Shown piece after piece: positions 3 through 48,951 of a stretch of DNA of 64,000 nt (position 1 is its first letter; the number at the start of each line of letters is the position of its first letter). The stretch is from assembly GCA_963836185.1 (NCBI GenBank), contig CAWIIQ010000001.1, forward strand, positions 480,001 to 544,000, in the 5' to 3' direction. The position numbers were made by a program, and so were the translations under genes. The notes under the pieces are model-generated. The model had not been told where the DNA came from. It saw nothing but the letters and a program-made list of their open reading frames with translations, and did not search any database. The stretch comes from Candidatus Krumholzibacteriia bacterium. GTDB taxonomy: Bacteria > Krumholzibacteriota > Krumholzibacteriia > Krumholzibacteriales > Krumholzibacteriaceae.

Positions 3-2204
3 AGCAATCCCAGGCTGATCAACGTGATCATCTGGGGAAACACGGCCGACAGAGGAGACAATCCACAGATCTGGAACAATACCAGCTATCCTGTGATATC
101 ATTTTGTCTCATAGAAGGATGTGGAGGCAGCGGAGGAAGCTGGGACGGTACCTTTGGCCTGGACTCAGGCAACAATATTGACGAGGAACCGCTGTTTTTT
201 GATGGAATGAGCGGTGACCTGAGGCTGTTTCCCCACTCGCCGGCAGTCGATGCGGGTGCGACAGATTCAATCCCTGCGAATATCGAAAACGATCTCGGCG
301 GCAATCAGAGAATTGTAAACGATGTCGTTGATATCGGCGCGTACGAGTCGCAGGCCACCTGCCCGCCCGGATCTGTCCTTTACGTCGACGTCGACGCTTC
401 GGGCGAGAATTCAGGCGCTTCCTGGTCCGACGCTTTTACTGAGCTTCAGTTCGCACTCGACTGGGCGTGGATATGCCCTGGCGTGACGCAGATCTGGGTC
501 GCCGATGGATTCTATACGCCCGAAACAGACACCATCGTCACCGACCGGAGCGAGACATTCCAGCTTCTCGACGGGATCGCGGTCTACGGTGGATTCGCGG
601 GGACCGAGACCGACCTCTCCGAGCGGGACTGGGTGGTGAACCCTACCGTTCTGAGCGGCGATATAGGAGCTCCCGGCGACAGCACGGACAACTGTTATCA
701 CGTGGTCACAGCAAGCGGCACGGACGCGACAGCGGTTCTGGACGGCTTCACTATCACCGGGGGGAACGCCAACGCAAGTGTGACGGCCCTGGCGATGGTT
801 CAGAGCGAAACCTTCGAGAATGAAGAAATGGAAAGGGATGTGAAGCCAACCCTCTCTGGCACTTCCGTCTCGGGTTCCAGGATCATCACGGCGTGGATCG
901 ACACGCACGGGGGAGGAGTAAAAAATATCGGCGGCAGCCCCACACTGCGTAACCTCGTGATATCGAGAAATTACGCCTCGGACGGCGGGGGGATGTACAA
1001 CGACAGCGGCAGTCCGACACTCGTCAATGTCCGGTTCCTGAACAACACCGGGATCTGGGGCGGCGCCATTCACAACTGGGATGATGGTAATCCTTCGTTC
1101 GTCAACGTCGTCTTTGCCGAAAACTCGGCCGACTTCGGCGCGGGCCTATACAGTAACTGGAGCGATCCGAGCCTGATCAACGTGACCATGTCAGGCAACA
1201 CTGCCTACAGGGGCGGCGGGCTGTACAACAATTTCGGCAATCCGGTTCTTGTCAACACGATTCTCTGGGGCAATTCTGCTCAGGATGCCGGGGAGGAGAT
1301 ATACAACGCCTCGGCTGTGCCTGTTGTATCTTACTCCCTCATAGAAGGGTCCGGCGGAAGCCTGGCCTGGAATCCGTTGTTCGGCAGCGATTCCGGAAAC
1401 AACATCGACGCTGATCCTGTGTTTGTTGATGAGTTTGCCGGCGACCTGAGTCTGATGCCTGGCTCACCCGCTATCGATGCGGGCGACAACTCTTCGGTTC
1501 CATCAGGTGTTACCACGGATCTCGACAGCAATCCCAGGATCACGGGCGTAACAGTCGACATGGGGGCATACGAGTACCAGTCGGCGCTGGCCGGGGCGTT
1601 CCCTTCGCCGATTGTGTTCGAGGACCCGCCGATGAACGAGACGACCTGCGATACGATCTACTATACAAACGACGGTGGGGTCACATGCACGATCGAGGGA
1701 ATATACGGTTGTTCGACGGCACCTTTCAGTATTGACACTTCGATGACAGTTCATGCGCTCGCCCCGGGAGGTACTACCGCGGTCGTGGTATGCGTTCATC
1801 CGACTACTGCCGAGCCGGACTCTACCCAGCTTGTGATTGTCTCTGATGCGGTTAACAGCCCTACAGTCGTCGATGTCCTGCTCGACCTGGATCCGACTTC
1901 AGGCGAACAGGAAATAGTTCCGCAGCCGTTTCGAATCGTCTCCGTATCGCCGAATCCGTTCAATCCCTCGACTACTCTCTATTTCACACTTCCAGAGAAG
2001 ATGCGGGTCAAGGCTTCAGTATATTCGGTCACCGGTGCGAGGATCCGTGTGCTCTCAAACGGGAAACGTTTCAGTCCAGGATTGAACCGGCTGACATGGG
2101 ACGGCCGTACAGACAGGGGCTTTACAGCCGCTTCCGGTGTGTATTTTATACGGCTGGAGACTAAGTCCGGAACAGATGTGAAGCGTGCCGTGCTGTTGAG
2201 ATAG
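3..2204 (+). CDS. Secreted beta-helix / choice-of-anchor-Q-like surface protein with FlgD-Ig (T9SS-like) C-terminal domain; 5' partial
   Basis: Frame is open to the window edge (SNPRLINVIIWG). Contains GGG-x-YN/N-x-A beta-helix repeats, two 'SPAxDAG...R...VDxGAYE' modules, and the C-terminal PNPFNP...WDG...SGVYF...VLLR* domain. Confidence 0.85.
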   Translation, partial: SNPRLINVIIWGNTADRGDNPQIWNNTSYPVISFCLIEGCGGSGGSWDGTFGLDSGNNIDEEPLFFDGMSGDLRLFPHSPAVDAGATDSIPANIENDLGGNQRIVNDVVDIGAYESQATCPPGSVLYVDVDASGENSGASWSDAFTELQFALDWAWICPGVTQIWVADGFYTPETDTIVTDRSETFQLLDGIAVYGGFAGTETDLSERDWVVNPTVLSGDIGAPGDSTDNCYHVVTASGTDATAVLDGFTITGGNANASVTALAMVQSETFENEEMERDVKPTLSGTSVSGSRIITAWIDTHGGGVKNIGGSPTLRNLVISRNYASDGGGMYNDSGSPTLVNVRFLNNTGIWGGAIHNWDDGNPSFVNVVFAENSADFGAGLYSNWSDPSLINVTMSGNTAYRGGGLYNNFGNPVLVNTILWGNSAQDAGEEIYNASAVPVVSYSLIEGSGGSLAWNPLFGSDSGNNIDADPVFVDEFAGDLSLMPGSPAIDAGDNSSVPSGVTTDLDSNPRITGVTVDMGAYEYQSALAGAFPSPIVFEDPPMNETTCDTIYYTNDGGVTCTIEGIYGCSTAPFSIDTSMTVHALAPGGTTAVVVCVHPTTAEPDSTQLVIVSDAVNSPTVVDVLLDLDPTSGEQEIVPQPFRIVSVSPNPFNPSTTLYFTLPEKMRVKASVYSVTGARIRVLSNGKRFSPGLNRLTWDGRTDRGFTAASGVYFIRLETKSGTDVKRAVLLR

Positions 2205-2208
2205 AGTG

Positions 2209-2226
2209 ATGGTGCTTCTGAGGTAA
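2209..2226 (+). repeat. Degenerate echo of the upstream gene's 3' end (reads MVLLR*)
   Basis: atg gtg ctt ctg agg taa follows 4 nt after the gene end gcc gtg ctg ttg aga tag. Confidence 0.75.
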
Positions 2227-2244
2227 ATAGGGCATAATAGGCAC

Positions 2245-3385
2245 ATGTTTGCCTATCAGAAGACTAACCGGTATTTCGCACAGATCTCCGACGGGCTGGA
2301 GACCGTGGGCGTAAACGAACTTACATCCCTCGGAGCGACAGACGTCAAGCCGTCGTTCCGGGGGATCTACTTTTCCGCCAGCCCCGCCCTGTTGTACCGG
2401 GTCAACTATATGACACGGCTCGCAACGCGGGTGCTCGCGCCGCTGATCACATTCGACTGCCACAGCGACAAGTATCTCTACAAGACTGCAAATTCGATCG
2501 CCTGGAACGAGCTCTTCTCAGTGAGGCAGACCTTCGCCATAGACGCGAATGTCAGCGACAGCAATATCACGCACTCTCAGTACGCCGCGCAGAAGCTCAA
2601 GGACGCGATCGTAGACCAGTTCCGCGACGCGTGCGGGGAGCGGCCCAGCGTCAAGACGAGGGACCCCGATATCTGGCTGAACCTCTTTATCCGAAACAAC
2701 AAGGCGACGATCAGCATCGACACTTCGGGAGGTTCGCTGCACAGGCGCGGCTACCGGGTCGCCTCGGTCGAGGCGCCGATGCAGGAGACGGTCGCGGCTG
2801 CGATCATCAGGTACACAGGCTGGGATGGAGAGAAGCCTCTCTACGATCCGATGTGCGGGTCTGGGACGCTTCTCTGCGAGGCGGCTATGCATTACTGCCG
2901 GATACCGGCGGGGTATTTCCGAAGCGAGTTCGGGTTCATGAGACTTCCCGACTATAAGAAGGCGCTCTGGAAGAAGGTCAGGGAGGACTGTGACGCGCGG
3001 ATCAGGCCGCTGCCGCAGGGGCTGGTATCGGGGAGCGATATGTCGCGCGCAGATGCACATGCCGCGAGGCAGAACTGCGGCGAGCTGCCCGGAGGAGAGA
3101 ACATCTCCATCGGCATCAAGCCGTTCCAGGAGATCGAGTCGCTCGATGACACAATCATCGTCTGCAATCCGCCGTACGGTGTGCGGATGAAGGACAGGGG
3201 GGACCCGGGAAGGCTCCTCGGCGAGTTCAGCGAGTTTCTGATCGAGCGGTGCCGGGGAAGCCGTTGCCTACATATACTTCGGTAAAGAGAAGCAGATGGA
3301 TACGGTCAAGCTGCGCGCCGCCTGGAAGAAGCCGATGAAGAGCGGCGGGCTCGACGGATTCCTCGGGAAGTACAAGATCCGCTGA
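2245..3385 (+). CDS. rlmL: THUMP-domain class I SAM-dependent RNA methyltransferase (RlmL/YpsC-like); one frameshift near 3260
   Basis: Motifs SLHRRGYR, APMQET, DPMCGSGT and NPPYG. The C-terminus continues in another frame (VAYIYFG...KSGGLDGFLGKYKIR*) to TGA at 3385. Confidence 0.8.
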
Positions 3386-6621: not shown

Positions 6622-8573
6622 ACAGCAGGATAGGCGTTTATATCTGCCAGTGTGGCTCCAATATCTCGGACTACGTCGACGTCGAGAAGGTCAAGGAAGC
6701 TGTCGAGCAGGAAGAGGGCGTTGTCCTGGCGAAGATCACGATGTTCGCCTGCGCCGACTCGACACAGCAGGAGATCGTCCAAGACATAGAGGAAGAGAAG
6801 CTCGACGGAATGGTCGTCGCTTCATGCTCGCCCAAGCTTCACCTCGGAACGTTCAGGAGCGTTGCCGAGAGGGCGGGCCTTAACAGGTACAATTACGTTC
6901 AGTCAAATATCAGGGAGCAGGCCTCATGGGCCCATTCCGACAAGCCGGCCGAGGCGACAGAGAAGGCCATAAGAAATGTAAAGGCGGCGATCGCCAGAAC
7001 GAGGCTTGCCGCGCCTCTGATTCCCCCGATGATCCCGTCGGAGAACACGGCGCTCGTCGTCGGGGCGGGTATAGCGGGGATGAGGGCGGCGATCGACCTG
7101 GCCGATACAGGCTCGAAGGTCTATCTCATCGAGAAGGATCATTTCGTCGGCGGAAGGACGGCGCAGTGGGGCGAGCTCTTCCCTACCGGCCAGACCGGGG
7201 CCGATGTGATAACGGACCTCTACCGCGAGGTGGGAAAGCGGGAGAACATCACACTTTATACGGGGTGCGAGGCCGTCTCGAAATCGGGGAGCATGGGGAA
7301 TTTCGCGGTTCAGCTGAGGATCGATCCGCGCGGCATCAGAGGCGGAGACAGTCTTCCCGGGTCCGCTGATTTCGAGACGAGGCTCGTGCGCGCGATAGCC
7401 GCATGCCCCGTAAGTGTTCCCGACATATTCGACTTCGGCCTCTCGGAGAGAAAAGCGCTCTACATCAATCCGGGCGGACTGCCAGGACTTCCCGTCGTGG
7501 ACCGCGAGGCGTGCACCGGGTGCGGCGAATGCGTGAAGATCTGCCCCGAGATCGATCTCGAGCAGAAGGATGAGCTCGTCGATATCAAGGCGGGATCGGT
7601 CATCATCGCTTCCGGGTTCGATCCGTACGAGCCGAAGCAGGGCGAGTTCGGATACGGGGAGATAGACAACGTTATTACGATGCAGCAGTTCAGGAGACTT
7701 ATCGAGACGTGCGGGAAGAAGCTCGTCTTCGGCGGAAAAAAGATACGCAGCATCGCATGGATCTTCTGTGTCGGCAGCCGGCAGACGGGAGAGCTCGAAG
7801 GGGAGAACAAGTACTGCGCGAGGTACTGCTGCACATCGGCGATACACTCGGCGGTCGTGGCGAAGAAGAGGTTCGCGGACATCCGGAACTATCACTTCAC
7901 CAGGGGCGTCAGGACATACGGCAAGTACGAGACTATATACGAGGAATCTGCATCGCTTGGCGACATCTACCTGCAGTCGACCGAGGACGATCCACCCGTC
8001 GTGAGCGTGGAGGATGGAACGACCCTGGTAAAGATCAACGACATTATGACCGAGGAGAAGGAACTCGAGGTCGCCCCCGACCTCGTCGTCCTCGTCACGG
8101 GGATGGTCCCGCGGGCCGGGAGCACGATCGGCTCGATAATGAAGGCGCCGGCCGGGCTGGACGGTTTCTTCAACGAGGTCCATCCGAAGCTCAAGCCGGT
8201 CGAGACGGTCATCGACGGGATCTTTCTGGCGGGCACGTCGCAGGGGCCGAAGAATATCACCGAGACGGCTATGTCGGCCCATTCAGCGGCGATCAAGACA
8301 CATACGCTTATCAGCAAGGGTGAGATAGAGCTCGAGCCGACGATGGCCCTGGTAGATCGGGGAGCCTGCGAGTGGTGCGGGAAATGCGCCGCCGCATGCC
8401 CCTTCGACGCGATAGACGAGGTGAAAGAGGGTGCGAAGAGCGTTGCGGCCGTCAACGAATCGGCATGCAAGGGATGCGGGATGTGCCTGCCGGTCTGCCC
8501 GGTGAACGCTGTCCAGCTCAAGGGATTCACGGACGCCGAGATAGAAGCGATGATCGACGCGATGGCGGAATGA
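6618..8573 (+). CDS. hdrA: Heterodisulfide reductase subunit A-like flavoprotein (651 aa)
   Basis: RIGVYICQCG N-domain, VVASCSPKLH, VVGAGIAG, CVGSR...CARYCC, HPKLKPVET, C-terminal 2x[4Fe-4S] ferredoxin. Confidence 0.9.
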   Translation: MNSRIGVYICQCGSNISDYVDVEKVKEAVEQEEGVVLAKITMFACADSTQQEIVQDIEEEKLDGMVVASCSPKLHLGTFRSVAERAGLNRYNYVQSNIREQASWAHSDKPAEATEKAIRNVKAAIARTRLAAPLIPPMIPSENTALVVGAGIAGMRAAIDLADTGSKVYLIEKDHFVGGRTAQWGELFPTGQTGADVITDLYREVGKRENITLYTGCEAVSKSGSMGNFAVQLRIDPRGIRGGDSLPGSADFETRLVRAIAACPVSVPDIFDFGLSERKALYINPGGLPGLPVVDREACTGCGECVKICPEIDLEQKDELVDIKAGSVIIASGFDPYEPKQGEFGYGEIDNVITMQQFRRLIETCGKKLVFGGKKIRSIAWIFCVGSRQTGELEGENKYCARYCCTSAIHSAVVAKKRFADIRNYHFTRGVRTYGKYETIYEESASLGDIYLQSTEDDPPVVSVEDGTTLVKINDIMTEEKELEVAPDLVVLVTGMVPRAGSTIGSIMKAPAGLDGFFNEVHPKLKPVETVIDGIFLAGTSQGPKNITETAMSAHSAAIKTHTLISKGEIELEPTMALVDRGACEWCGKCAAACPFDAIDEVKEGAKSVAAVNESACKGCGMCLPVCPVNAVQLKGFTDAEIEAMIDAMAE

Positions 8574-12361: not shown

Positions 12362-15225
12362 ATGGAGTCACATGCCTCAGCGCGTTTGCGCATTCTGTAT
12401 CTCTGTATGTCTATCATCGCGACAATCATTTCTTGATGGGTATTGCTGTTCCGGCTTCGGCAGATTTCACGCTGACGATCTACGAGCAGACGGGCAGCAT
12501 CAACACCTACACATTCATCGCAGGACGATCATCAGTGTCTTTACGACGATATGGCAGGGTCTGCCCGGGCCCTCATCTCTCGGGATACATCGGGTACGAT
12601 TTCGGAACGGGCGGGTGCGAGTATTACGATATCTTCTTCTGCGACTCGGAGGGAGACGGCTCTGGATATCGGGCCGGGTAGATCCGCTGCCGTTCGACAT
12701 CTTCATTAAGCTCGAGTGCTGGGACATCAGCTGCCCTGACGGGGAACTTGTCAGCGTCTCCGACCTGGATCAGCGCGGGAAATAACATCGATGCCGTCGA
12801 CGCTCGAGATCGATGGAGAGATGTTTTACGGCTCAGTCCGTTGTCGGAGGAAGTCTACGGCCTCTGCGATGAGCCGTTGGAGCTGAAGAACTCGAACTTC
12901 GCTGATCGAGCGCGCTCGGGCCCCCCGACGCTGAGCATAACGAAGATGGGTTGCGGATCGACGGTGATCACGCTCGAGTATGGGTTCAGAACCTGGTATC
13001 GGCCATGTGAAATCGTAATTGACTATCCTCACTCGGGAACGACGTACTACATCGGCAGGCAGCACTACGATAGACGTAGCGCAGAACACGTGTGAGCAGC
13101 TCAGGTTCGACTGGAGCTTTACAAGGGCGATATCGCTTCTGTGTCAGATCGCCGATATCACCGGGAAGGTGGTACGAGTGGTATGAAGTGAGCGACTGCG
13201 GAGGCGGGTCCGGCTGGGATTATCGTATCAAGGCGACGTGCCTGGCGAATCCGGCCTGCTTCGACTTCAGCGACTATTTTATCGATGCTTGACGGCGCCA
13301 GCGGCTGCGAGATCGTGGTCAACTATCCTCACTCGGAGACGACGTTCTATATCGGCGGGCAGCACACGATCGATATAACACCGGACGGCTGTAACGGTGC
13401 GGTGAGCCTGGAGCTGTACAGGGGCATCACGCGTCTCTGCCATATCGCGGATATCGCGGGGACGTCGTACGACTGGTACGGGGTGAGCGACTGCGGAAGC
13501 GGACCGGGAGCGGACTATCGTATCAAGGCGACGTGCCTGTCGGATCCGGGCTGCTTCGACTTCAGCGAGTATTTCACTATGGCCGAAGGCGCTGGAGGCT
13601 GCGAGGTAGTCGTTAATTATCCGGACTCGAGCGCGACGTTCCTTGTCGGCGGGCAATACATGATCGACGTGATGCCGAACACATGTGACGGCCCGGTACG
13701 CCTGGAACTTTATAAGAGTGACCTGCTTCTTTGCCGGATCGCCGATATGAGCGGCAGGTGGTACAACTGGGACGGGGTGAGCGACTGCGGAAGCGGCCCG
13801 GGAGCGGACTATCGTATCAGGGCGACCTGCCTGTCGGATCCGGGCTGCTACGATTTCAGCGATTATTTTACCATTACAGTGCAGGATACCTCCGATACCT
13901 CCATGGAGCACGATCCCCTCGCCGCTATCGGCGATTCCTTCTTCGCCTGGGTCGGGAACGGCATAGGCTGGGTCACCGCGGAGGATGGCTACATCTTCGG
14001 AGATGTCCCCTACTGGTTTGACGCTCTGATCTCGCGAAAATCCTTCGATCCCGCGAACGGGCCCGTGATGATATTCAGGGTGTTCAATTCGATAGGAGCG
14101 TCAAACTTCATGGGCGGCTTCACATCCGTGCTGCCGCCGACCAACGACTTTCATTACAATAACATCGAGATAGGCGTCTATCTCCACTCTACGGGAACCA
14201 TCCGGCCGGCCTGGGATGTCAACAATGCCGGGTACTGGTCGACGACTCTAGCTGCCGGGTTCTATGACATAAAGATCGAGCTCGGTGATTCGGAGGGCAC
14301 GGTCATGCTGGCGATCGACGATGTTGCCGGCTGGTCCTCGCCCCTTTCAGATTTCTCGGCCCCGGTCTGGTCGTCGGTCGAACACAGAACGACAGGAGGG
14401 CCGTATCATATACAGATAAATCCATATAACGAAGGGAGCAGGGTCTACGACGTATGGGCCTCGGGGACCGGATCGGCGCCGCCGCCCCCGCCTCCGCCGG
14501 AAGCGGCTCCGCACATCATATTCGTCGAGGATGTCGGTAATGACGAGGGGCGCCAGGTGAGGATGAAGTGGGAGGCGTCAGCCCTGGACGGGCCCGGTAG
14601 TCCGGAGCCTGTCACAGGTTACGCGCTGTGGCGCAGGATCGATACGCTGCCTGCATGGATCGATGTCGCGGCCGCGGCCGTTCCCGGCCCCGTACCGATG
14701 TATCCTCCCGGCGACTGGGATTATCTCGGCACCGTTCCCGCGTGCTGCGAGGAGACGTACGCGACGATCCTTCCGACACTTGCGGATTCGAGCGCTTCGA
14801 GCGGCGTCTTCTGGTCGGTCTTCTTCGTGAGGGCGCTCACTGAGACGCCGGAGATATATTTCGACTCAGCACCCGACAGCGGATACTCGGTATGTGACAT
14901 CATTCCGCCGGATCCCGGGGAAGATCCGGACCCGCAGCCGGCAGAGCATGACGATTATCTCGGCCGAAATTATCCCAACCCGTTCAATCCTGTCACCGAG
15001 ATCAGGTTCGGGCTGAAAGAGCATGGGCATGTCCTTATCAGGATCTACGACACTGGCGGGAGACTCGTCAGGACACTCGTTAACGGTGAGATGCCTGCCG
15101 GCGACCATGCCGAGGAGTGGAACGGTACGGATGACTTCGGAAGGATGGCGGCAAGCGGCATCTACTTCTGCCGCCTCGAGGCAAGAGAGCTGTCTTGCAG
15201 TATCAAGATGGTGCTCCTGCGATAG
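12362..15225 (+). CDS. Large secreted protein with three Cys-rich ~98-aa repeats, an FN3-like module and a FlgD-Ig C-terminal domain; several frameshifts in 12430-13285
   Basis: RBS GGAGGGG plus ATG at 12362; signal peptide ...VPASA; fragments join into ORF 13285..15225, which ends NYPNPFNP...SGIYF...KMVLLR*. Confidence 0.7.
13006..13875 (+). repeat. Three tandem intragenic repeats (about 294-300 nt, 6 Cys each)
   Basis: Units start at 13006, 13306 and 13600: CEIVVNYP...LELY.G...LC.IAD...VSDCG.G...DYRI.ATCL..P.C.DFS.YF. Confidence 0.9.
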
Positions 15226-41471: not shown

Positions 41472-43894
41472 ATGGGCAACCGCATTATCCTTGCGGCGGC
41501 GCTTGGCGTTTTCGTCATTGCATCGGCAAGCGTATCCGTGCGTGCCGACTGGCCGGAGAATGGTCTATTGGTCTGCAATGAACTCAACACACAATCGAAT
41601 CCCCTTGCCATACCTGACGGTATGGGAGGTGTGATCGTGGTCTGGAGAGATTATCAGACAGGTGATGATATTTATGCCCAGCGGTTCAACGTGAGTGGAA
41701 CCCCGCTCTGGGACGCGCGTGGCGTCCCCTTGTGCACGGAAGCATCCAGTCAAACTATAGCCTATGCACAGATATGTTCAGATGGCTGTGGTGGTGTGAT
41801 CGTAGCGTGGGGGGACGGCAGGAATGGCGACTGGGATATCTACGCTCAGAGGATCGGCCACGACGGGACCGCACGCTGGACCGTCAACGGGGTTCAGATA
41901 TGCACCCTGGTTTCCAATCAACAGTATCCTCAGGCAGTACCTGATGGAGCGGGCGGCGCTTTGATCGTCTGGGAGGACTGGCGAAACAGCAATCTGGACG
42001 TCTATGCGCAGCGGATCGATGCCGGCGGGATAGTATGGTGGACCCACAACGGAGTCGCTCTCTGCACCGCGGTCAGTAACCAGACATGGATCAGAGCGGC
42101 ATCGGATGGAAGCGGGGGGATGATCTGCGCATGGATGGACTCACGCGCAGGTAATTACGATGTCTATTCACAGAGGGTCGACGGGAGCGGGAACGTCCAG
42201 TGGACAACCGACGGAATGCCTGTCGCCACTCTCACGACAGTTGACGGGAATCCCTGCATCATTGCCGACGGATCCGGAGGCGCGTTCATAACATGGATGG
42301 ACGGGAGGCCCGGGACGGACGGTATTTACGGGCAGAGGATCGATTCATCCGGTAGTCCGCAATGGACCGTAAACGGGGTATCGGTATGCAGCGCCGCAAG
42401 CAGTCAAGTCTACTCCTATCAGGACCTCGATGGAGAGGGGGGGATGGTCGTAACCTGGCTCGATTACAGAAACGGTATATATGATGTCTATGCCCAGCGC
42501 ATGAACGGTTCAGGAGTTGCTCTCTGGACGGTGGACGGGGTTCTTCTCGAGTCGCGTCCGCAAAACATGTACGACCCCAGGATCGTGTCCGACAAAGATG
42601 GAGGAGCGATCGTGACCTGGACGGAGAATGAAAACATATACGCTCAGAGGGTCGATGGAGCGGGAACGGTCCAGTGGCAGATGGAGGGGCTCCTTGTCTG
42701 CGGCGCCCCGGCCTACCAGGATGATTGCAGGATAGTGACGAACGAAGCCGGCGGAGCATATATCGTATGGCACGACTACCGGTCGGGAGATTACGACGTC
42801 TATGTGAGCAACGTAGAGCCTGATGGATCTCTTTATAGTGCGCCCCCCTCGATATCTTCGGCGAATGATGTGCCGGCCGACCAGGGCGGCTATGTCTATC
42901 TGTCATGGGACGCCAGCCGGGATGAGCGCTTCCGGGGCGATCTTGTGACTCACTATTCCATATGGAGGGCGATCGATCCCGCCGCCGCCCTTCTGGCTGC
43001 CGGCAGCGGAAGGCAGATTCTTGAGGCGGGCGCCGGCAATGCTTCCGTCATCCCCCTGGCTGCCGATATTCCCATCGGCGCTGTAAAGATGGAGATTCTC
43101 GACGGCGCGCCATGGTACTGGGAACTTGTTACCACACAGGAACTCTACTACCAGGACACGTACGGGCTGTCCGTATCGACACTCTGCGATTCCGTAGGCT
43201 TGGAAGAATGCTGGCACTACTTCCAGGTCGTGGCGCAGACTGCCGATCCGATGGTCTACTGGGCCTCGCAGCCGGACAGCGGGTACTCGGTAGACAACCT
43301 GGCCCCCTGCCCGCCCCTGGCGCTTGCCGGCGAGCAGAGTTTCACGCCGGAGGGGCTGGAGCTGACCTGGGCGCCGAACACGGAGCCGGACCTCGACTGC
43401 TACAACGTATACCGCGGCATCGGCCCCTCGTTCGACCCATCGCCCGGCAATCTGCTGGCCGAGGCATGCGACACACTTCTTTTCGACGGCGGCTGGTCGT
43501 GGGACTCGGATTTCTGCTACAAGGTCGCCGCGGTCGACGTACACGGGAACGAGAGCGGTTTCGCTCTGCTGTGCGCAGAGCAGGTCACAGGCGACGACCC
43601 GATGCCGCTGCCGGAGGCGACTTTCCTCGCGCAGAACTATCCCAATCCGTTCAATCCCGCGACGACGATTGCGTTCGGGCTTAAAAGAGTCCGGGTCTGT
43701 GTCACTCCGGATATATGACGCGGCCGGACGACTCGTAACTACTCTTGTCGATGAATCAAGACCCGCAGGCAGATATACCACTGAGTGGAAAGGCAAAAGA
43801 AGCTGATGGATCATCCGCCGCGAGCGGCGTCTACTTCTACAGGCTTATATCGAAGGAGTTCGAGGAGACCAGGAAGATGATCCTGCTGAGGTGA
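41472..43894 (+). CDS. Secreted 8-repeat beta-propeller-like protein with FN3-like modules and FlgD-Ig C-terminal domain; two frameshifts at A-runs (about 43685 and 43797)
   Basis: Eight DGxGGxxxxWxDxR...DIYAQR...W repeats; QNYPNPFNP; reconstructed end SGVYFYRL...RKMILLR* (TGA at 43894). Confidence 0.85.
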
Positions 43895-43955
43895 TAAGTA
43901 AAGATGATCCTGCTGAAGGGATGATTTTGTTGAAGCGATGATCCTGCGCATGTAG
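43874..43955 (+). repeat. Gene end (KMILLR*) followed by three degenerate echoes
   Basis: aagatgatcctgctgaggtga, then aagatgatcctgctgaagg (43901), atgattttgttgaagc (43921) and atgatcctgcgcatgtag (43938). Confidence 0.85.
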
Positions 43956-44084
43956 ATCTAGGGTTACGGCCGGATCCATATTGTCTGGTACTGTATATGC
44001 CGCATGCACATCTGAGCCGGTGGCGGATACTGCGAAGACCTGCTGCCATGACAGGATTTTTACGCACGATGGGACTGCCGTTTC

Positions 44085-46847: not shown

Positions 46848-48892
46848 ATGCGCTCTCTTATTTCCACTCACTATCATCCTGGTCCTGGTACTCGTCCTGC
46901 CTGCGGATTCACGGGCAAGGGAGGATGGACATCTGGTAACAGACGGTAGTCGGGACAACCTCGGGATAATGGTGTTAGACGGCTCCGGGGTCCATGACAT
47001 CGGGAGCTTCTTCTCCATACTGGAAACTGGGGGATCTTCGGGTCGTATCCCGGCTCGAGCATTCCCATTGCGGATTATCCTTCGGCCATGTGGCCGGCGA
47101 GCAGCGGCGTCGAGCATCTATTTATCGAGGGGATATGGATCGGCGCGAGAAAGGGAGGCTGGCCGAAGGTATCGACATCGGCTTTCGAGAGGGAGTTCAT
47201 GCCGACCGACGACCCGGTCGATATCATATACGACTCGTACGAGGGAGCCCCGGGGGGGATAAGGCTTCCGTCACCAGGCGCAGATGACGACGGCGACGGG
47301 ATGATCGATGAGGACTGGCTCGACGGACACGATAATGACGGGGACGGCCTTATCGACGAGGACTTCGCCGCCATTTCGCCGCAGATGTTCAGTTCGTGGT
47401 TTGCCGACAACATGCCGGGCATCACCGAGATCTATCCTGAACATGATCCCCTGGACATAGTGTTGAGGATGGAGACCTACCAGTGGGACGACGATGATTT
47501 CGACGATTTCGTCGGTGTGAAGTTGACCATGACCAATGTCGGCGAAGAGGTCCTCGAGGATATCTACTTCGGGATGTTCACCGATGCAGATGTCGGGCGA
47601 AGGAGCGACGGGGAATACTACAAGGACGACGCCTGCGCGTACTGGAGGGGGATGAGAGAGTCGGGGGACGGTGAGGTATATGTCGATATCGGTTATGCGT
47701 TCGACGCTGATGGAGACGGTGGAAGTACAACGAGTTATTACGGAACGATGATACTGGGCTGTTCGGTCGATCCGGAGTGGTCGACCGTGAAGGGCCGGGC
47801 AGAATGGACTGACATTCCGTGCTTTCACCGGAGGAGACCAGCCGTATGAGAACGGCGGCGATCCGACGAACGACTTTCAGCGCTACGAAATCATGTCGAA
47901 GGCCGGTTGGGACGCCGTTGCCCCGGATGGGATCGATGTCCGTTATCTCTGCAGTACCGGGCCGTATACCGAGCTTCAGCCCGGTGGTTCGATCACATTC
48001 CACATCGCGCATGTCTGCGGCTTCGGCCTCGAGGGGCTTCTCGACAATGCCGCTAAGTGCAAGCGCCTGTTCGACGGGATAACATTCGACTATAACGGCG
48101 AAGAGACCCAGGTTCACTGGACGCTCGACGAGCCTGCTCTCGCCGGTGTGCTCGACATCAAGCCCGGCACATGCAAGAACCCGTTCAACATCAAGAACTT
48201 CGAGTTTGCACATGAGCGGGAACCCGAACAAGGGCGGCAAGATGCCGGTCGCGATCCTCGGCGGCGAAGGATTCGACGTGACAGAGATCGATATATCCAC
48301 GATACAGGCTCAACGGAGTGGCGCCTCTCTGCAAGGGTCAGTCGTTCTGTGATGTCGCCGGGCCGGGAGAGAATGAGGGGCCGTGTCAGTGCGGGGAGGA
48401 AGGACCGGACGGATACACCGACCTTCTGCTGAAGTTCAGCAACCAGGAGATCGCCGCGACGAGGCTGATCCTGTCGATACCTCAGCCGGGCGAGAAATGG
48501 ACACTGGCGATGACAGGTGAGTTCAATGACGGGACGGAGTTCCAGATGACAGACTGCGTCACCTTCGTCGGCGAGCCGCCGAAGTTCGATAAGCCGGACA
48601 GGCCGATGCTCACAGGGGAGACGAGGCTGATGAGCGCGTCTCCCAACCCGTTCAATCCGGCGACGACGATAGCGTTCGAGCTCGCCGCGCCGGGGCAGGT
48701 GTCGATCACTGTCTACGATGTCAGCGGACGGATGATCCGAAGTCTCGTCGACGGGCACCTGCCTGCAGGGATGCACGAAGTGACATGGAACGGCCGTGAC
48801 CGCAGCGGCGCCACCGTGGCGAGCGGAGTCTACTTCTACAGGCTCATGGCCGGCGAGGTCTGGAGACCCGTAAGATGGTACTATTGCGCTGA
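46848..48892 (+). CDS. Secreted protein, paralogue of the 18743..21310 N-terminal region, with FlgD-Ig C-terminal domain; multiple frameshifts
   Basis: Fragments VLDGSGVHDIG...WPASSGVEHLF...DDDGDGMIDEDWLDG...; LDIKPGTC.NP; SPNPFNP...SGVYFYRL...RKMVLLR* (TGA at 48892). Confidence 0.75.
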
Positions 48893-48907
48893 TTGCAGGC
48901 ACAGACC

Positions 48908-48951
48908 TTGACAATGAGGACCTCCTGTATTACAATGTAATACAGGAGGTC
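48908..48951 (+). promoter_or_regulatory. Toxin-antitoxin promoter with perfect 16-bp inverted-repeat operator
   Basis: TTGACA-17-TACAAT; GACCTCCTGTATTACA-A-TGTAATACAGGAGGTC overlaps the -10 box and the AGGAGG RBS. Confidence 0.85.

What the first reader, a model, noticed from the sequence alone, without database searches (positions are those of the whole stretch)
2190..2226. Orphan MVLLR* terminus behind a FlgD-CTD gene, differing only synonymously
The gene ends gtg ctg ttg aga tag (VLLR*). Four nt later comes atg gtg ctt ctg agg taa (MVLLR*). All four differences in the last five codons preserve the amino acid or the stop. The orphan also matches the KMVLLR* ends of the paralogues at 15225 and 48892 better than the resident AVLLR*. 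Inference: it is the relic tail of a different CTD gene that once occupied this site, implying swapping of surface-protein genes at the conserved CTD end.
Basis: partly seen in the sequence, partly recalled or inferred. Interest (0 to 1): 0.7.

Follow-up and report, generated by a model that had tools for sequence, protein, structure and literature searches.

The report
Fossil tail of a replaced gene
The 19 bases after this secreted-protein gene match the end of a giant secreted-protein gene that still stands at this spot in related genomes, so they are most likely a scar left when two other genes took its place, a sign that these surface-protein gene arrays turn over by ordinary imprecise recombination rather than by a dedicated swapping machine.

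Summary
Observation confirmed and far beyond chance; an independent metagenome contig bridges the junction. The orphan MVLLR* (window 2208-2226) is not a copy of the resident gene's end or of the two paralogues named. With its spacer it matches (33/36 nt) the end of an A-type giant T9SS-CTD gene that directly precedes the rlmL-like gene in two congeneric genomes. In the sister genome the array reads [A1 stub]-promoter-[A2]-rlmL; here it reads A1-same promoter-[B+C]-orphan-rlmL. So B+C likely replaced A2, leaving its tail and decayed first codons. Another genus pair (G066/G017) repeats the pattern. Relic tails vary in length (19, ~32, ~45, ~50, ~66, ~106, ~130 nt), some follow pure deletions, and no integrase or IS end lies at this joint, so no fixed swap site is shown. 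Side finding: an IS110-family element sits at CTD stop codons (41 of 50 end-motif matches examined), with a remnant at window 43970; this scan noted such elements before on other DNA.

The parts
24..2204 (+). C-terminal ORF of gene C (resident). Choice-of-anchor-Q/beta-helix-type protein with a T9SS type-A CTD ending KRAVLLR*. Its N-terminal part lies upstream of the window (C1:477929 on), split by an apparent assembly frameshift. It starts 10 nt after gene B (C1:467683-477918, 3411 aa).
   Evidence: (TIGR04183 28.1 bits, cut-off 23; NF041518 75.5 bits)
2205..2207 (+). 3-nt joint between gene C's stop and the relic; no IS end or integrase site recognised
   Evidence: sequence
2208..2226 (+). 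Orphan tail (G + MVLLR*): inferred last 19 nt of the displaced A-type giant CTD gene (A2)
2208..2230 (+). 23-nt stretch identical to the end plus first 4 downstream bases of gene A at C1:467414-467436 (29/33 when extended). It is the only other exact copy in the genome.
2227..2244 (+). Spacer native to the A-type gene/rlmL-like junction in congeners. It carries a conserved CAT-R-M-T hexamer 6-7 nt before the ATG, a possible -10 or ribosome-binding signal (inference; the consensus scan found no promoter).
2245..3385 (+). THUMP-domain RlmL-like methyltransferase gene, the conserved right-hand anchor of the array; frameshifted near 3250-3285 in this assembly
43901..43955 (+). Second site in the window: three degenerate CTD-tail copies stacked behind the CTD stop at 43894
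43970..43988 (+). Remnant of one end of the CTD-stop-targeting IS110-family element, just after the stacked tails

Best explanation
The 19 bases match the end of an A-type giant secreted-protein gene that precedes the rlmL-like gene in related genomes, and are likely the leftover tail of such a gene (A2), whose body was probably replaced here by the foreign pair B+C through illegitimate, short-homology recombination. Shown: the match, the synteny in congeners, the shared promoter block in front of A2 (G002) and B (G000), and variable relic lengths. Inferred: the ancestor of G000 and G002 had CTD1-A1-promoter-A2-spacer-rlmL; B+C entered at A2's first codons and A2's body was lost in the same or a later event, with the right joint falling between C's stop and A2's Lys-Met codons. 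Weakly inferred: the tail survives because the last ~37 nt before the rlmL-like ATG carry its expression signals. The tail itself is predicted to have no protein function.
For: (1) In G002 and G003 an intact A-type giant gene ends directly at this spacer; orphan plus spacer match at 33/36 nt in each. L101 is the same sequence as G003 and is counted once. (2) An 8-kb rpoBC tree makes G000 sister to (G002, G001) at 100% support, with G003 basal in the genus. (3) G002's ~66-nt stub matches G000 gene A's tail 64/66 (CTD1 60, G002's own giant 60). It is followed by the same terminator/promoter block that precedes B here (87% over 46 nt; 0 of 500 shuffles reach the score in each of three segments up to about +345). 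In G002 that block leads into an intact A-type start; here that start codon is lost. (4) B resembles genes of other genera (74% nt to G015 over 393 nt) and is only about 48% aa to G002's giant, against 59-74% for A. No DNA match above about 76% to the bodies of B or C was listed among 43 family genomes. (5) Replicate: G066 has CTD gene Y, 2 nt, then a ~32-nt ENRKMILLR* orphan. In congener G017 an intact ENRKMILLR* gene precedes the homologous flank (score 87, 0 of 1000 shuffles; three control flanks 15-19). (6) Deletions at this array leave tail stubs with no incoming gene: G006 ~45 nt and G002 ~66 nt. Further stubs are ~50 nt (G000 C2:7331), ~130 nt (C1:335611) and ~106 nt (G066:8097-8202).
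Against: G002's A2 is on two contigs (C332 start, C254 end) with about 1.5 kb unassembled, so its continuity is inferred from collinearity with A. Gene A's first 14 downstream bases match the rlmL spacer 10/14, the best of 105 tails (next 9/14), which suits a duplication of A's own end; G002's A1 stub lacks this. The RBS-region likeness is partly family-wide: the control against this genome's own A start scored 26 versus 32. The promoter scan found no sigma-70 site, and G066's orphan faces a convergent gene, so retention for expression cannot be general. No donor carrying B+C with its native 3' flank was found, so the microhomology at the joint is not shown. G001, the other sister, gave no match to the rlmL-like protein or to the array's left end in the searches made.
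Confidence: 0.65

Rival explanations
1. The 14.8-kb block (terminator, promoter, B, C) was inserted at the end of gene A and duplicated 23-33 bp of it, as an att-like or target-duplicating event; the orphan is A's own displaced end.
For: A perfect 23-nt direct repeat, unique in the genome, flanks the block, and 4 of those bases lie past the stop. G003, basal in the genus, has a single A gene before rlmL. G066 has a 30/32-nt repeat around a 4.4-kb block.
Against: A-type and CTD1 tails are nearly identical even between distant homologues (A vs G003 30/30 and A vs CTD1 29/30 in the last 30 nt), so the repeat needs no recent duplication. The promoter block is shared with sister G002, where it drives an A-type gene. 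The G066 repeat belongs to a four-copy local subfamily. Four other divergent orphans (L065, L079, L082, L092) had no partner in the upstream DNA fetched (3.8 to about 39 kb).
Confidence: 0.17
2. A dedicated enzyme acts at CTD ends (the IS110-family element that targets CTD stop codons, or a site-specific recombinase) and swapped the genes.
For: An IS110-family transposase (NF033542, 259 bits) sits exactly at CTD1's stop in this same array in G003. Its end motif lies at an HMM-confirmed CTD stop in 41 of 50 matches examined (21 of 23 exact ones; 50 of 52 matches examined; reversed control 0). A remnant lies at window 43970, next to stacked tails.
Against: That element inserts inside the stop codon, whereas this joint is 3 nt after one stop and 19 nt before another. 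No IS end lies at the joint and no copy was found in G000. IS1111/IS110 elements are reported to add no target duplication (PMC11187229, passages read). The four tyrosine recombinases found are all >600 kb away, and Pfam showed none in B or C. Relic lengths are not fixed.
Confidence: 0.08
3. Local tandem duplication of the resident gene's own tail, followed by drift.
For: Such 18-22-bp duplications exist: 4 of 17 CTD-following hits in GTDB (L064, L069, L073, L076) and one non-CTD case in G000.
Against: The orphan is 11/19 identical to the resident tail but 19/19 to gene A, and it is continuous with the spacer found behind A-type genes in congeners.
Confidence: 0.02
4. A functional five-codon leader ORF (MVLLR*), coupled to gene C, that regulates the rlmL-like gene.
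For: It has an ATG 4 nt after a stop and its own stop 18 nt before the next ATG (sequence).
Against: In G002 and G003 the same bases are simply the end of a long gene; in G004 and L102 they are absent. No RNA run is listed, so expression is untested.
Confidence: 0.03

Closest known systems
rhs C-terminal displacement (Jackson et al. 2009, PMC2935791; passages read)
   Same: Gene ends of earlier occupants lie downstream of the current gene as direct repeats of varying length.
   Different: In rhs the conserved core is upstream and variable tips are displaced and kept as a reservoir. Here the conserved end is what is left, it is 19-130 nt long, and the gene bodies are exchanged.
Sequential displacement in Vibrio T6SS effector-immunity arrays by proposed homology-facilitated illegitimate recombination (Kirchberger et al. 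2017, PMC5361080; passages read)
   Same: A new module displaces the old gene at a fixed array position with no integrase; 3' remnants are pushed downstream.
   Different: There the retained immunity genes are selected for. Here the relic is a few codons, and no kilobase homologous anchor is shown (B is 63-67% nt to A-type genes in the matching patches).
Allelic exchange and domain shuffling of T9SS cargo genes in Porphyromonas gingivalis (PMC5266723; passages read)
   Same: CTD-bearing surface proteins vary between strains by recombination.
   Different: The passages read describe homologous exchange and domain modules, not orphan CTD tails.
Integrative elements that target 3' gene ends and leave attL/attR repeats (recalled from memory; no paper read)
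   Same: A short direct repeat of a gene's 3' end flanks a foreign block.
   Different: No integrase in or near the block, no fixed crossover point, and the block was not found elsewhere.
IS1111/IS110 RNA-guided insertion sequences (PMC11187229, passages read; PMC11208160, search listing only)
   Same: A member of this family targets CTD stop codons in this bacterial family and sits in this array in G003.
   Different: It inserts within the stop codon without leaving a second tail; no trace at the 2204/2208 joint.

Membership tests
T9SS type-A CTD cargo genes (genes A, B, C) | C-terminal TIGR04183 sorting domain | tested here: met
   C 28.1, A 36.0, B 30.8 bits; cut-off 23
T9SS type-A CTD cargo genes (genes A, B, C) | T9SS machinery in the genome | tested here: inconclusive
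   Only two components searched: SprA_N at the cut-off (E 2.9e-6) and PorV (E 1.4e-16)
T9SS type-A CTD cargo genes (genes A, B, C) | Secretion and CTD cleavage shown | not testable with these tools
   Uncultured organism; no proteomics
Displacement arrays (rhs / T6SS effector-immunity) | Relic 3' ends of former occupants behind the current gene, of varying length | tested here: met
Displacement arrays (rhs / T6SS effector-immunity) | Conserved 5' core as homologous anchor, with a variable C-terminal tip exchanged | tested here: not met
   The conserved part is the C-terminus; B shares only 63-67% nt patches with A-type genes
Displacement arrays (rhs / T6SS effector-immunity) | Relics are toxin tips or immunity genes with retained function | tested here: not met
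   The relic is five codons; Pfam/NCBIfam show no toxin or immunity domains
Site-specific integrative element at a 3' gene end | Direct repeat of the target's 3' end at both borders | tested here: inconclusive
   A 23-nt repeat is present but is explicable by near-identical paralogue tails
Site-specific integrative element at a 3' gene end | Integrase in or beside the block | tested here: not met
   (PF00589 only; serine recombinases not searched genome-wide)
Site-specific integrative element at a 3' gene end | Fixed crossover position across events | tested here: not met
   Relic lengths 19, ~32, ~45, ~50, ~66, ~106, ~130 nt
CTD-stop-targeting IS110/IS1111 element as cause of this joint | IS ends or transposase at the joint, insertion within the stop codon | tested here: not met
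   met at other CTD genes
CTD-stop-targeting IS110/IS1111 element as cause of this joint | Guide RNA pairing with the target | not tested
   Only a short Leu-Arg-stop-like stretch noticed by eye in the 3' non-coding end

The most novel reading that the evidence does not exclude
The ~100 near-identical CTD gene ends act as a genome-wide family of recombination sites. RNA-guided IS110-family elements, small palindrome-linked tail modules and short-homology joins all converge on them to swap whole surface-protein genes and secretion tags, making a cassette-like cargo-exchange system without an integron. The orphan is one of its scars.
Probability: 0.15. Interest if true: 0.8.

Novelty: new variant of a known kind. 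Interest (0 to 1): 0.42.

Why it matters
The relics are readable fossils of which secreted-protein gene stood at a site, and they show that giant (10-kb) T9SS cargo genes in an uncultured lineage are gained and lost as units at fixed array positions. They give a cheap sequence marker for mapping such turnover. The mechanism best supported is ordinary, so the finding alone is of moderate interest. It would matter much more if the several elements that converge on CTD ends prove to drive the exchange. I found no paper on orphan CTD tails in the full-text searches; most subscription papers are not searched.

Tried and rejected
Longer-gap stacked tails (20-80 nt): 0 in 52 order genomes. Stacked tails in viral contigs: 0. 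Class-wide strict pattern: only 5 matches in 4 of 208 genomes (G000 twice, G066, one local duplication in G130, one chance hit in G025), with 2 reversed-control matches, so adjacent orphans are rare, not systematic. GTDB scan (AAG-ATG tails only): 30 of 47 hits do not follow a CTD and 3 of the 17 that do look like chance. Upstream-partner search was negative for L065, L079, L082 and L092; L089 could not be tested because the wrong contig was fetched. Composition did not separate B+C from A: GC3 0.64-0.66 versus 0.63, with CTD1 and housekeeping genes at 0.78-0.80. No sigma-70 promoter or terminator was found at 2000-2500. No RNA holder was listed. Contigs laid on the A-B junction did not bridge it informatively. 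My first reading (insertion with a 23-bp duplication) was demoted after the tree and the promoter-block comparison. L101 was first counted as independent and then merged with G003. Two of four metagenome hits (L103, L104) are from unrelated loci. The primary HFIR paper (PMC122324) was not held, so HFIR is cited through PMC5361080. No supplements were read.

Full report
Observation. The resident gene (C) ends VLLR* at 2204; an ATG at 2209 starts MVLLR*, ending at 2226. The four base differences in the last five codons are all silent. The genome has 105 canonical CTD ends among 130 HMM hits. The orphan is the best-scoring tail outside a CTD gene in 7.0 million positions (27.5 bits; 1.8e-4 expected genome-wide with gene A left out). 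Among 3,139 long ORFs only this site and one non-CTD local repeat re-use their last codons within 60 nt. The assembly has many frameshifts, but a 301-bp contig from run X2 spans the junction with 5 differences and no gaps.

Setting. The window is G000:C1:480001-544000. Upstream lies a tandem array: CTD1 (1382 aa, M6 peptidase), A (about 3,900 codons with frameshifts; LVIVD, FG-GAP and LamG domains), B (3411 aa; FG-GAP, LamG, Ig) and C, then the orphan and a THUMP RlmL-like methyltransferase gene. A, B and C pass the TIGR04183 cut-off, and the genome has SprA-like and PorV matches. The orphan plus 4 following bases (23 nt) occurs exactly once more in the genome, at the end of gene A, 14.8 kb upstream.

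Relatives. The rlmL-like gene was found in 4 of 6 congeners. G002 and G003 have an intact A-type giant gene directly before it, whose tail and spacer match the orphan and spacer at 33/36 nt; locus L101 equals G003 and is counted once. G004 has CTD1 and a different gene D with a different spacer. G006 has lost the array and keeps the first codons of CTD1 fused to a ~45-nt A-type tail. Metagenome locus L102 has yet another CTD gene followed by short ORFs that I did not annotate. The site is therefore a turnover hotspot between fixed anchors.

Whose tail is it? An rpoBC tree places G000 sister to (G002, G001) at 100% and G003 basal. G002 reads: RNA-binding gene, a ~66-nt tail stub, a terminator/promoter block, an A-type giant, spacer, rlmL. 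The stub matches G000's gene A tail 64/66, better than CTD1 or G002's own giant at 60/66. The block after it is homologous to the A-to-B spacer of G000 through the ribosome-binding site into the first codons, where G000 has lost that start codon. B's body resembles genes of other genera (74% nt to G015) and has no close match in 43 family genomes. The simplest history is A1-promoter-A2-spacer-rlmL in the common ancestor, with B+C replacing A2 in G000 and leaving both its decayed start and its 19-nt tail. Caveats: G002's giant lies on two contigs, and A's first downstream bases resemble the rlmL spacer (10/14), which favours the rival reading that B+C inserted at A's end and duplicated it.

Replicate. 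In G066, another genus, CTD gene Y is followed after 2 nt by a ~32-nt ENRKMILLR* orphan. In its congener G017 an intact ENRKMILLR* gene precedes the homologous flank. G066 has a second, ~106-nt stub in the same array.

How general, and how made. Adjacent orphans are rare: 5 pattern matches in 4 of 208 class genomes and none at longer spacing in 52. In GTDB, 17 of 47 hits follow a confirmed CTD. The second copy reads as a CTD tail in 14 of those 17, versus 11 of 30 elsewhere (Fisher p 0.005). The 17 comprise 4 local duplications, 5 divergent orphans, 5 palindrome-linked cases and 3 likely chance hits. Relic lengths range from 19 to ~130 nt, and two at this array follow plain deletions. No tyrosine recombinase lies within 600 kb. 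I conclude illegitimate, short-homology recombination in one or two steps. An in-register crossover between tails would leave no orphan, so such swaps, if they occur, are invisible to this test. Retention of the tail for rlmL-like expression is a weak inference from a conserved hexamer; the promoter scan was negative.

Dedicated machinery nearby. An IS110-family element sits exactly at CTD1's stop in G003. Its end motif occurs 52 times in 30 of 208 genomes (reversed control 0), and 41 of the 50 examined are at CTD stop codons. G000 has no copy, only an end remnant at window 43970-43988 behind three stacked tails. This shows that CTD ends are targeted, but the element's insertion point does not explain the 2204/2208 joint. 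Earlier notes of this scan describe such elements on other DNA; they are AI notes, not support.

Comparison and verdict. It works like rhs and Vibrio T6SS displacement arrays (PMC2935791, PMC5361080; passages read) in leaving relic ends, but with reversed polarity and no function for the relic, so it is not a member. It fails the integrase and fixed-site tests for integrative elements. The taxon name Krumholzibacteriota came from an earlier AI note and was not tested. Verdict: a real, well-supported scar of whole-gene replacement in a T9SS cargo array; new variant of a known kind; interest 0.42.

Noticed in passing
L167:93-1535 (G003:C31); loci L228-L277; window 43970-43988: IS110-family element with sub-terminal inverted repeats and a long 3' non-coding end, inserted inside CTD stop codons and supplying a new TGA. 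41 of 50 end-motif matches examined lie at CTD stops; several are internally deleted mini-copies (27-233 bp). 22 of 42 family genomes have the motif.
   Followed up: partly
window 43894-43988: Three degenerate CTD-tail copies at about 17-nt period behind a CTD stop, followed by an IS end remnant. The four congeners that hold this site have other genes there. Origin unexplained; not checked against reads.
   Followed up: partly
L112, L115, L119, L121, L059 (G208); L124 (G209); L106 (G210); L107 (G211): In Marinimicrobia/Fidelibacterota records (L107's record is unclassified), CTD genes end in a replacement tail plus a short palindrome whose end supplies the ATG of a different orphan tail (7 of 30 palindrome loci examined, plus L059). 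L119 shares only the last ~29 nt with L112/L115, suggesting tail-only replacement. The likeness to CGTC-type REPs is recalled, not tested.
   Followed up: partly
G000 C1+1219707, C1-115137, C2+271192, C3-435382; L025:15605; L102:876: A conserved ~85-nt linker-plus-hairpin element starts exactly at the stop codon of unrelated CTD genes; L102 holds only the hairpin part.
   Followed up: partly
G000 C2:~7283-7331 and C1:~335480-335611: Two more orphan CTD 3' ends (~50 nt behind what looks like a mechanosensitive-channel gene, label recalled; ~130 nt) with no close partner in the genome.
   Followed up: partly
G000 C1+1261342 and C1-1369138: Two CTD genes share 472 identical bases up to their stop, a recent duplication or conversion.
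   Followed up: no
window 3250-3385, 43680-43894, 48860-48911 and genes A and C upstream: Many single frameshifts in otherwise intact genes, probably assembly indels; not checked against raw reads.
   Followed up: no
L135:2098-4574 (G066:C79): The block between gene X and gene Y holds a 332-aa gene with no Pfam or NCBIfam hit and what look by eye like an ECF sigma factor and anti-sigma gene.
   Followed up: no
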